Shown here in pieces: positions 15,981-18,559 of a stretch of 64,000 bases of DNA (the first letter of the stretch is position 1; each line of letters starts with the position of its first letter). The notes under the pieces are model-generated. The model ran no database searches, was not told the DNA's origin, and was given only the letters and a program-made list of their open reading frames with translations. The position numbers and the translations under genes are program-made. The DNA lies in assembly GCA_964016885.1 (NCBI GenBank), contig OZ024743.1:328600001-328664000 (forward strand). Direction: 5' to 3'. Source of the stretch: Eledone cirrhosa. Its lineage: Eukaryota.

Positions 15981-16535
15981 ATATATAAACAACTATCTGG
16001 TTGTGGAACCAACCAACCAACCAGAAATTTATAAGTTTGTAGATTTGTAAATTTATAAATTTATAAATATATAATAAATTGAAGTGAAAGCAACTGGTGC
16101 GTGTGTTTCTTATTGGCAACATGACCCTCCCAAAGTATAACAATATATATATATATATATATATATATATATATATATATATATATATATATATATATAT
16201 ATATATATATATATATATATGCATATATATATATGCATATATATGTATATATATTCATATATACATAAACGGAAAAAATGAAACGAAATTTCATTTCTCA
16301 CTCTTAGTACGGCTGGTACTTAAATATAAGTATGTATACGCACATACATATATGTATACAGACATACAGTAGTATGTATACATATATATACATACATGCA
16401 CACATATATATATGTACGTATGGATTCACCGAACATTTATTATAATGCTTGGTGTGTTTGTAAACAAACATCCCGAATTAAGCCGTACAGTGTCTAGCAA
16501 CCATCGTTGCTCATTTGTTCAACACTGACAAAGGA

Positions 16536-16578
16536 ACGCTGTACTAGTTTCAAGCTTATTAGCTATCGTCAGCAACGT
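16536..16578 (-). ncRNA. Minimal type I HHR
   Basis: acgttg-CTGACGA-t-agct-aata-agct-t-GAAA-ctag-TA-cagcgt. Confidence 0.9.
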
Positions 16579-16607
16579 ATACCTTCCTGCCAGATGATTG
16601 AACGTCT

Positions 16608-16662
16608 GAAAGTATATACTTTCCTCATGCATATTATCGGCTGAGCAGCCTAATTTGCATAT
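16608..16662 (-). promoter_or_regulatory. Candidate snRNA-like promoter: octamer (16653-16660) and palindromic GAAAGTATATACTTTC
   Basis: Both motifs are conserved in the diverged copy at 28658-28711. Confidence 0.5.
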
Positions 16663-16966
16663 CGAGTGAGTTAATCGGCCGGGGTACCGAAAACGATAAA
16701 CGGAAAAAATGAAACGAAATTTAATTTCTCACTCTTAGTACGGCTGTTACTTAAATATAAGTATGTATACGCGCATACATATATGTATACAGACATACAG
16801 TAGTATGTATACATATATATACATACATGCACACATATATATATGTACGTATGGATTCACCGAACATTTATTATAATGCTCGGTGTGTTTGTAAACAAAC
16901 ATCCCGAATTAAGCCGTACAGTGTTTAGCAACCATCGTTGCTCTTTTGTTCAACACTGACAAAGGA

Positions 16967-17009
16967 ACGCTGTACTAGTTTCAAGCTTATTAGCTATCGT
17001 CAGCAACGT
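16967..17009 (-). ncRNA. Minimal type I HHR (second tandem copy)
   Basis: Identical to 16536-16578, 431 bp away. Confidence 0.9.
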
Positions 17010-18559
17010 ATACCTTCCTGCCAGATGATTGAACGTCTGTTGCGAGACACTGTACGATGGTTGCTAAACACTGTACGGCTTAATACGGGATGTTTGTTTA
17101 CAAACACACCGAGCATTATAATAAATGTTCGGTGAATCCATACGTACATATATATATGTGTGCATGTATGTATATATACATACTACTGTATGTCTGTATA
17201 CATATATGTATGTGCGTATACATACTTATATATATATATATATATATATATATATATATATATATATATATATATATATACATATATATATATATATATA
17301 TATACATATATATATATATACATATATATATATATATATACATATATATATATATACATACATATATATATATATATATATATATATATATATATATATA
17401 TATATATATATACATATATATATATATGCATATATATATGCATATATATATATATGTGTGTGTGTGTGTATGTACGTATACATATATATGTGTGCGTATG
17501 TGTGTATACATTGAGAGTGTAGTGGTGCCAAGAGTGTGAATCGACACACACACACAAGTAAAGTGTCAAACAGATCGCCATCATCACCCGTTCCCCACCC
17601 CTATCTCTCCCCTCTCCTCCCCACCCCGGTCTCTCTCCTCCCCTCCCCACATCTGTCTCACATGCCACACATTCCGAAAAAGATCTGTTACTGTTGAGGA
17701 AGGAAGAAAAGAAGGCAGTCAAGTTACAACACTCTCACACACACACACACACACAGGCACACACTTGCACACACACATGCATACACACACATACCCACAC
17801 ACATGCACACACACACAAACTCTCACACACAGACACACACACATATGCACACACGCTTCCAAACACATGCACACGCACACGCACACACACAGACACACAC
17901 ATACACACACACACAAACTCACACATACAGATACACATACATGCACACACACACGCACACACACACACACACACACTCACACACACACAGACACACACAC
18001 ATGCACACACTCACATATACACACACTCTCTCGCAGACAATCACATATAGACACATACATTATGCATACATATAAATACACATATATACATACATATACA
18101 CACATACTTATTTATACATATAAATACACACATACGAGTATACACATACATACATACATACATACATACATACATACATACATACATACATACATAATGC
18201 ATACATACGCATACATACATATGCACACACGTATGCACACACAAGCACACATACACGCATACATATACATATATATGTATATATGCACGCACATATATAC
18301 ATACATATATATAAATAAGCATATATATACATGCGCCTATATACACACATATACATACATACACACACACCTAGACACTCGTACAAACTCTTGCTCACAC
18401 ATAGACATGCATACATACACATACACTCGCATACACCAATACATGCATACATACATATTCACACACCTACATATAGATAGATATACACATATCCACACAT
18501 ATACACACATGTTCCGTTGATTGAACAAGTGGGACATGCTCGTTGCTGCAGATGGGGTC

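What the first reader, a model, noticed from the sequence alone, without database searches (positions are those of the whole stretch)
16265..17230. Family R2: 431-bp head-to-tail HHR unit with a Penelope-style 5' inversion
Two identical HHRs exactly 431 bp apart predict a 431-nt monomer after double cleavage. The insertion has 1.8 units plus an inverted arm inside (TA)n, the same architecture as the coding PLEs here. This fits reverse transcription of a circular or multimeric RNA by a PLE enzyme (inference).
Basis: partly seen in the sequence, partly recalled or inferred. Interest (0 to 1): 0.8.

Follow-up and report, generated by a model that had tools for sequence, protein, structure and literature searches.

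The report
Hammerhead retrozyme with Penelope insertion marks
A 431-base non-coding repeat that carries a self-cutting hammerhead RNA motif sits in TA microsatellites with the inverted arm and short tail typical of Penelope-like retrotransposons, so it is a new member of a known class (retrozymes) whose insertions record how such RNAs are copied into the genome.

Summary
The insertion has two identical type I hammerheads (HHRs) on the minus strand exactly 431 bp apart, 1.80 units, a 14-nt templated joint and a 178-bp inverted arm, all inside (TA)n. A second, 79-85% identical copy at 28287-29014 has the same plan. In both, the arm starts 58-59 nt inside the main copy's end, in a hairpin loop: the Penelope 'tail'. 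Public DNA runs show a high-copy family whose unit end runs on into the unit start in other copies, with matching change rates across stem I and no listed change in the catalytic core. It is a non-LTR retrozyme, a known class, most likely copied by a Penelope-like (PLE) enzyme; Hydra-clade PLEs with like marks lie in the window. Cleavage, expression and circles are untested, and no RNA run was listed. A cleaved linear monomer cannot be the template. One circle copied round is disfavoured, not excluded: the two units differ at two sites by common family alleles. My searches found no description of tail plus inversion in a retrozyme.

The parts
16143..16264 (.). (TA)n target, left flank; the main cDNA is inferred to start from here
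   Evidence: TRF 16143-16267; sequence
16265..16695 (-). Unit 1, full 431-bp repeat (RNA sense = minus strand), non-coding
   Evidence: longest ATG ORF of the monomer read as a circle is 51 aa
16265..16323 (-). 59-nt 'tail', present on the main copy and absent from the arm; holds a hairpin, and the arm starts in the loop of the next hairpin (16320-16329)
   Evidence: 58 nt at locus B
16338..16421 (-). Long (YR)n hairpin inside the unit
   Evidence: folds
16536..16578 (-). Type I hammerhead 1: helix I 6 bp; helix II with U.U at its base plus AGCU/AGCU; helix III ACUAGU palindrome; predicted cut between 16542 and 16541
   Evidence: family variation
16608..16623 (.). 16-bp perfect palindrome with a TATA-like core; unit 2 stops at its first base
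   Evidence: also in copy B, 28657-28672; promoter role is inference
16653..16660 (+). Octamer ATTTGCAT, 81 nt upstream of the HHR core in RNA sense; possible internal promoter element
   Evidence: 5 in window, 6.2 expected, so not enriched; role is a recalled lead only
16696..17039 (-). Unit 2, partial (344 of 431 bp), 6 substitutions against unit 1
16967..17009 (-). Type I hammerhead 2, identical to HHR 1; predicted cut between 16973 and 16972
16542..16972 (-). Predicted 431-nt cut-to-cut monomer, 36.7% GC, strongly self-paired as a circle (-137 kcal/mol, z -7.8)
   Evidence: prediction only
17040..17053 (+). 14-nt templated joint: a re-copy of arm sequence after a slip on a CGT microhomology
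   Evidence: 1 mismatch to the unit 1 allele, 2 to unit 2
17054..17231 (+). Inverted arm, unit positions 243 down to 60; stops 34 nt short of the HHR cut site
17232..17455 (.). (TA)n target, right flank
   Evidence: TRF 17227-17455
28287..28713 (-). Second family locus (B), main copy: unit positions about 3-399, HHR core at 28621, 58-nt tail, (TA)n flank
28714..29014 (+). Locus B inverted arm (unit positions 331 down to 60) with a full HHR at 28737; starts at the same unit site as arm A

Best explanation
R2 is a non-LTR retrozyme: a non-coding 431-nt repeat with one type I hammerhead per unit that spreads with a Penelope-like element's RT and GIY-YIG endonuclease. Likely steps: (1) a tandem locus is transcribed on the HHR strand (inferred); (2) HHR pairs can cut it, best as dimers through the ACUAGU palindrome, into 431-nt monomers that may circularise (inferred from relatives); (3) a PLE protein cuts a (TA)n target and each target end primes cDNA inside the RNA, one end at unit position about 1 and the other at about 60, in a hairpin loop (start sites seen in two loci; mechanism inferred from PMC11167929); (4) both cDNAs run the same way along the RNA, through intact HHR cut sites, and are joined end to end by microhomology or a short templated patch, giving partial tandem + inverted arm + one-sided tail (structure shown). 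The template is uncut or re-ligated RNA, not a cleaved linear monomer. I put about 55% on a multi-unit template with non-identical units, 30% on one circle copied round, 15% on other routes. The partner is most likely a Hydra-clade PLE (about 50%).
For: Anatomy at two loci. Head-to-tail joint with alleles unlike the window's in 67 contigs of X1, 2,365 reads of X21 (depth of that bin about 3,290) and 1 contig of X4. 10 of 12 listed joints change strand, at varied places. Stem I pair 16575/16539 is U.G in A and G.U in B; in X21 the two sides change at 65.5% and 65.1%. None of 37 listed variable sites falls on 26 core and helix II positions (P 0.007; core alone P 0.05). 6 of 80 consensus pairs change on both sides between A and B. 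3 of 4 cDNA segments cross the cut site unchanged and none ends at it. Units 1 and 2 differ at 16494 and 16513 by alleles each common in the family (P about 0.01-0.03 by chance). Hydra marks (DKT, RWK, CxCX5C) in window ORFs; Hydra inserts in (TA)n (PMC8557442 section 11).
Against: Self-cleavage is not tested; 8 of 9 predicted Xenopus retrozyme dimers did not cleave in vitro (bioRxiv 2026.07.22.740005), and U.U at the base of helix II weakens it. No Rfam HHR hit. R2 shares no sequence beyond 11-16-nt chance matches with any coding PLE in the window, so the partner is not identified; Naiad also targets (TA)n. The tail (58-59 nt) is longer than the 30-40 bp described. Strand-switch joints in a RAD library can be chimeras. 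In X1 the stem I rates match less well (52% against 37%). 7 of the 80 consensus pairs are broken in B. Later gene conversion could also explain the allele mix.
Confidence: 0.8

Rival explanations
1. Same retrozyme and PLE partner, but the template is one 431-nt circle copied more than once round (the published rolling-circle model). This differs from the best explanation only in the template step.
For: Exact 431-nt period; cut-site sequence intact at every crossing; highly self-paired monomer; circles shown for coral, mussel and axolotl retrozymes (PMC7229834).
Against: One circle gives identical units at insertion, yet units 1 and 2 differ at two sites by alleles that are each common in the family (16494 T 19-28%, 16513 T 17%), and the 14-nt patch has the unit 1 allele while the arm has the unit 2 allele. 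In vitro, PAc mainly uses uncleaved RNA (PMC11167929).
Confidence: 0.3
2. The locus is only the terminal repeat (pLTR) left from 5'-truncated insertions of a coding PLE, not a self-standing non-coding unit.
For: PLE insertions are mostly 5'-truncated with tandem and inverted parts (PMC8557442); retrozymes resemble pLTRs in Xenopus; 1,236 X21 reads leave the unit at 16629 into mixed, unidentified sequence.
Against: The unit end joins the unit start directly, here and in most reads at that place; no ORF over 51 aa; no match to coding PLE ends in the window or, by 12-14-nt probes, to the consensus set of PMC8557442; the HHR has 6-bp and 4-bp helices, not the long bulged helix II of PLE min-HHRs.
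Confidence: 0.08
3. A single inserted monomer was later duplicated and folded back at the DNA level (unequal exchange, breakage at (TA)n cruciforms, end joining).
For: (TA)n is fragile (recalled); the templated patch resembles repair synthesis.
Against: No flanking DNA is duplicated with the unit; the end-to-start joint is family-wide; arms at two loci that are 79-85% alike start at the same unit position.
Confidence: 0.06
4. A non-autonomous DNA element (MITE or Helitron/DINE-like) with an internal microsatellite, the inverted arm being a terminal inverted repeat and the HHR a passenger.
For: Internal (YR)n hairpin, tandem units, AT-rich targets; such elements make satellites (recalled).
Against: Arm lengths differ (178 against 301 bp) and join at different places; depth peaks over the HHR and its core shows no listed variation.
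Confidence: 0.03
5. Assembly artefact at low-complexity DNA.
For: Both flanks are long (TA)n runs; no listed contig spans the whole unit.
Against: Units differ by 6 substitutions and the arm by others; three runs hold 81-84% of sampled words (may be the source sample); locus B repeats the plan with different sequence.
Confidence: 0.02

Closest known systems
Non-LTR retrozymes of animals (Cervera & de la Pena 2020, PMC7229834; Li, Clavereau & Pollet 2026, bioRxiv 10.64898/2026.07.22.740005)
   Same: Non-coding tandem unit in the 150-450 bp range, one type I HHR per unit, GC under 50%, self-paired monomer, high copy number, PLEs in the same genome. The axolotl HHR_Amex2 also has U.U at the base of helix II.
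   Different: The main texts I read report no inverted arm, tail or microsatellite target for retrozymes; R2 has all three. Expression, cleavage and circles are shown there and untested here. No sequence relation to a PLE terminal repeat was found here, unlike 24 of 57 Xenopus families matching known TEs.
Endonuclease-bearing Penelope-like elements, Hydra clade (Craig et al. 2021, PMC8557442) and PAc (Frangieh et al. 2024, PMC11167929)
   Same: Partial tandem, adjacent inverted 5'-truncated copy, tail at one end, (TA)n target, HHR; two internal RT start sites that define the tail.
   Different: R2 has no RT or endonuclease ORF; its tail is 58-59 nt against 30-40 bp; its HHR has short canonical helices.
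Non-autonomous Chlamys PLEs such as MRC1 (PMC8557442)
   Same: Non-coding PLE parasites with pLTRs and head-to-tail multi-copy insertions.
   Different: Green algal; they resemble their autonomous partners at the 3' end, and Chlamys elements mostly lack canonical HHRs.
Minimal HHRs in PLE pLTRs (Cervera & de la Pena 2014, PMC4209133)
   Same: Type I, palindromic helix III, dimer model; HHR pairs on opposite strands 100-700 bp apart were already noted (as at locus B).
   Different: R2 lacks the 7-8-bp helix II, the extra base before helix II and the G10.1-C11.1 pair.

Membership tests
Non-LTR retrozyme | Short head-to-tail repeat (150-450 bp; up to 972 bp in the 2026 survey) | tested here: met
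   431-bp unit, 1.80 copies; end-to-start joint in other copies
Non-LTR retrozyme | Complete type I HHR in at least two consecutive units, fold energy below -5 kcal/mol (criterion of the 2026 preprint) | tested here: met
   HHRs at 16572 and 17003; -11.5 kcal/mol MFE, -7.2 for helices I+II. The second unit is partial (344 of 431 bp).
Non-LTR retrozyme | Non-coding | tested here: met
   Longest ATG ORF 51 aa sense, 38 aa antisense, read as a circle
Non-LTR retrozyme | GC under 50% and highly self-paired monomer | tested here: met
   36.7% GC; circular MFE -137 against -93.4 +/- 5.6 in 100 shuffles, 68% paired; much of it is the (YR)n hairpin
Non-LTR retrozyme | No LTR, PBS or PPT | tested here: inconclusive
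   No LTR pair in the locus; PBS and PPT were not searched for
Non-LTR retrozyme | Target-site duplication longer than 4 bp, when present | tested here: inconclusive
   Cannot be read inside (TA)n
Non-LTR retrozyme | Self-cleavage of the RNA | not testable with these tools
   Only structure and family conservation
Non-LTR retrozyme | Expressed as linear and circular monomer RNA | not testable with these tools
   Needs RNA data
Autonomous EN+ Penelope-like element | ORF with RT and GIY-YIG endonuclease | tested here: not met
   No ORF; no tblastn hit in 16265-17231 with 40 of 120 PLE-like proteins
PLE-type insertion (works like) | Partial tandem with adjacent inverted truncated copy | tested here: met
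   Locus A tandem + arm; locus B arm
PLE-type insertion (works like) | Tail at one end only (30-40 bp in described PLEs) | tested here: met
   59 nt (A) and 58 nt (B), longer than described; only 2 loci
PLE-type insertion (works like) | Microsatellite or AT-rich target | tested here: met
   (TA)n on all 4 flanks of the 2 loci
PLE minimal HHR (min-HHR) | Long helix II (7-8 bp), extra base between positions 9 and 10.1, G10.1-C11.1 | tested here: not met
   U.U plus 4 bp, no extra base
Rfam hammerhead families | Score at or above the gathering threshold | tested here: not met
   0 matches; no HHR family among 121 weak hits

The most novel reading that the evidence does not exclude
R2 is a very high-copy hammerhead retrozyme whose insertions directly record its mobiliser and template: a Hydra-clade PLE protein primes from both ends of a cut (TA)n site at two fixed hairpin sites of the retrozyme RNA, with no sequence kinship to the PLE, and copies an uncut multi-unit RNA. 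The HHR-made monomer or circle would then be a side product or reservoir, not the transposition intermediate that the rolling-circle model assumes.
Probability: 0.3. Interest if true: 0.68.

Novelty: new member of a known kind. Interest (0 to 1): 0.45.

Why it matters
Which enzyme moves animal retrozymes, and whether the circle is the template, are stated as open in the two papers that define the class (PMC7229834 Discussion; bioRxiv 2026.07.22.740005 Discussion). Their evidence for PLEs is co-occurrence and sequence likeness. R2 adds a different kind of evidence: PLE-specific insertion marks (tail, inverted arm, (TA)n target) on a non-coding HHR repeat. With thousands of copies implied by the runs, both questions can be tested on one assembly by mapping ends and comparing alleles within young tandems.

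Tried and rejected
No whole genome is held for this window, so copies could not be counted or their ends mapped. Rfam gave no HHR match; the weak microRNA hits are AT/CA-repeat noise. Exact HHR-core pattern: 0 hits in metagenome contigs and 0 in viral contigs; a looser pattern gave 1 unrelated contig. No RNA holder was listed; this says nothing about expression. Read ends at 16476, 16652 and 16655 in X21 fall on AATT and are read as library cut sites, not element ends. Summed contig depth is not used as a copy number. Pfam gave 0 families for 4 PLE ORF pieces; clade was assigned from motifs instead. The octamer is not enriched in the window (5 against 6.2), and a search for the recalled newt satellite 2 octamer promoter found 0 papers. 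'Penelope + inversion + twin priming' gave 3 papers, none on this topic by title and abstract start. Earlier scan notes: none by sequence or in this genome. Short probes of the R2 tail and HHR found no match in the consensus files of PMC8557442, except one incidental 10-nt hit in an ORF. The host was not identified; 'octopus' and 'cephalopod' in my searches were a guess from the repeat landscape.

Full report
Observation. Unit 1 runs 16265-16695 and is followed head to tail by 344 nt of a second unit (16696-17039) with 6 substitutions, 1.80 units in all. On the minus strand each unit has the same type I hammerhead, cores at 16572 and 17003, 431 apart: helix I of 6 bp, core CUGACGA, helix II with a U.U pair at its base and 4 bp, GAAA, and a helix III formed by the palindrome ACUAGU. 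The cut is predicted after CUAGUA, between 16973/16972 and 16542/16541, so double cleavage gives 431 nt. After unit 2 come a 14-nt joint and an inverted arm, 17054-17231, equal to unit positions 243 down to 60. Both flanks are (TA)n. A relaxed HHR descriptor finds 16 motifs in the window against a mean of 0.12 (max 1) in 50 shuffles. No Rfam HHR model matched and the isolated HHR does not outfold shuffles (z -0.94), so the HHR call rests on the motif and on family variation.

A second locus. 28287-29014 is 79% identical by BLAST and 85% over aligned columns. It has a main copy (positions about 3-399), an inverted arm (331 down to 60) with its own HHR, and (TA)n on both sides. Both arms start at unit position 60-61, at an AT that overlaps the target, in the loop of a small hairpin kept in both subfamilies; both main copies start 58-59 nt further out. 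That one-sided extension matches the PLE 'tail', which Frangieh et al. traced to two internal RT start sites in a stem-loop (PMC11167929, parts 1-2 of 4 read). Described tails are 30-40 bp, so this one is long; tails of Hydra-like elements in this window read about 86-90 nt (1402-1490) and about 135-140 nt (22043-22180). The inversion joints differ between loci. At A the joint is a re-copy of 14 nt of arm after a slip on CGT; at B it shares about 1 nt.

The family. I laid 4 of 23 listed runs on unit 1 at 80% likeness. Laid were 6,395 of 16.3 million contigs (X1), 36,020 of 12.5 million reads (X21, RAD, same species label), 33 contigs (X4) and 10 (X6, two other organisms). X1 may be the source sample. 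These numbers imply thousands of copies (inference; the tool warns depth is no copy number). The tool skipped 16265-16428 as repeat, so it cannot see the start sites. At 16683 the loose ends continue into the unit start, with letters unlike the window's, in 67 contigs of X1, 2,365 reads of X21 (bin depth about 3,290) and 1 contig of X4; none is shown for X6. The joint is thus family-wide, although only 30 loose letters are printed and array length is unknown. 10 of 12 listed joints switch strand at varied places; RAD chimeras cannot be excluded. Stem I pair 16575/16539 is U.G in A and G.U in B; in X21 the two sides change at 65.5% and 65.1%, in X1 at 37% and 52%, unphased. None of 37 listed variable sites hits the 16 core positions (P 0.05) or core plus helix II (26 positions, P 0.007); 19 rows were not shown. 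Between A and B, 6 of 80 consensus pairs change on both sides and 7 break in B. The monomer folds as a circle at -137 kcal/mol against -93.4 +/- 5.6 in 100 shuffles, much of it from a (YR)n hairpin, and has no ATG ORF over 51 aa.

Template. Three of the four copied segments (A main twice, B main, B arm) run through the HHR cut site unchanged; the A arm stops 34 nt short; none ends at the cut. No end pile-up there appears in the 3 listed end places or the 21 of 403 loose-end rows shown. A cleaved linear monomer is therefore not the template; uncut multimer and re-ligated circle both fit. One clue separates them. Of the 3 unit 1/unit 2 differences in the covered stretch, 16450 is private to unit 1 (98% of the family has the other letter), but at 16494 and 16513 both alleles are common (unit 2's T: 19-28% and 17%). 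Chance for this is about 0.01-0.03. The arm has unit 2's letter at 16494 and the 14-nt patch has unit 1's. One circle copied round should give identical units, so I lean to a template with non-identical units. This rests on two sites in one locus, and gene conversion could mimic it. PAc also uses mainly uncleaved RNA in vitro.

Partner. tblastn with 40 of 120 homologues of the 2446-4320 ORF finds five PLE-like stretches. The ORFs at 2446-4320 and 31634-33781 carry DKT and CxCX5C, the latter also RWK, the marks of the Hydra clade, which inserts in (TA)n (PMC8557442 section 11). Four of the five have an inverted arm. R2 shares no sequence with them beyond 11-16-nt chance matches, and Naiad has the same target, so Hydra is a best guess only.

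Mechanism. Shown: the anatomy, the shared arm start at two loci, the family-wide joint, conservation of the HHR. Inferred: transcription of the HHR strand, perhaps from the TATA-like palindrome and octamer inside the unit; dimer-favoured cleavage (helix III duplex -6.8 kcal/mol); priming by both ends of a cut (TA)n at two RNA sites; joining of the two cDNAs. Cleavage is not assured: 1 of 9 predicted Xenopus dimers cleaved, and the axolotl HHR with the same U.U cleaved 22% in an hour as a monomer and better as a dimer.

Comparison. R2 meets every sequence-testable mark of non-LTR retrozymes that gave a clear result (PMC7229834: abstract, Results part 1 of 3, section 15, Discussion and passages read; bioRxiv 10.64898/2026.07.22.740005: parts 1-3 of 5 and passages). 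It fails as an autonomous PLE and as a min-HHR (PMC4209133, parts 1-2 of 4). That PLEs mobilise retrozymes, and that circles might serve as templates, is already proposed in those papers. I found no report of tail plus inversion on a retrozyme: 'inversion' and 'microsatellite' occur 0 times in PMC7229834 and its 'invert' passages shown concern invertebrates; 'inversion' and 'tail' occur 0 times in the preprint; a five-term search gave 2 reviews, seen as listings only; 'cephalopod + retrozyme' listed only PMC8557442. Near precedents exist: opposite-strand min-HHR pairs and non-autonomous Chlamys PLEs (PMC8557442 passages). PMC6155905 was seen as passages only. The library lacks most subscription papers, and some supplements were unreadable. 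Two unchecked scan notes describe HHR-free tandem units with the same insertion marks in other genomes; they are leads, not support.

Verdict. This is a new member of a known class, with a useful and apparently undescribed insertion signature. Interest 0.45; up to 0.68 if the partner and a non-circular template are shown.

Noticed in passing
window 7014-7522 (minus): A second, unrelated retrozyme-like family: two identical canonical type I HHRs 339 bp apart (cores 7163, 7502), helix III palindrome AUGCAU, and an octamer 92 nt upstream of the first core, as in R2 (81 nt). No flanking (TA)n or arm seen.
   Followed up: partly
window 58020-59190: Non-coding partial tandem of about 603 bp period with an inverted arm, next to (TA)n, and no HHR found by my descriptor: a possible ribozyme-free PLE parasite.
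   Followed up: partly
window 1402-4377, 11872-14290, 19930-22180, 40350-43064, 31285-33990: Five Hydra-like PLE insertions or remnants; four have a 5' inverted arm, and tails read about 86-140 nt where measured, longer than the 30-40 bp described.
   Followed up: partly
window 35425-35750, 59258-59688, 47-367, 49913-50099, 19186-19272: Several pure fold-back insertions beside (TA)n; 35425-35750 carries two outward-facing HHRs (35525 minus, 35649 plus).
   Followed up: no
window 14800-16142: 3' fragment of a different PLE clade (CX2-5CxxC linker, GIY-YIG) with its own bulged HHR at 15941 plus; R2 sits in the (TA)n at its 3' end but shares no sequence with it. A related terminal repeat lies at 26454-26614.
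   Followed up: partly
window 19187 (minus): Another small HHR with U.U at the base of helix II and a palindromic helix III, from an unrelated family.
   Followed up: no
L001 753-783: An unrelated 1,153-bp metagenome contig has 30 of 31 letters of the R2 HHR core with a different but fully paired helix I, and a 78-nt direct repeat at its ends (about 1,075-bp unit): the same HHR subtype in another tandem or circular unit.
   Followed up: partly
window 35788-37692 (minus): A 634-aa ORF that looks like a LINE reverse transcriptase (by eye, recalled motifs); the HHR-like hit at 36329 inside it is probably chance.
   Followed up: no
run X1, joint 16617 to 16602: Another family copy has a 19-nt patch from the same arm stretch (unit positions about 224-242) at a joint, like the 14-nt patch at locus A; this hairpin may be a recurrent slip site (table 5c).
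   Followed up: no
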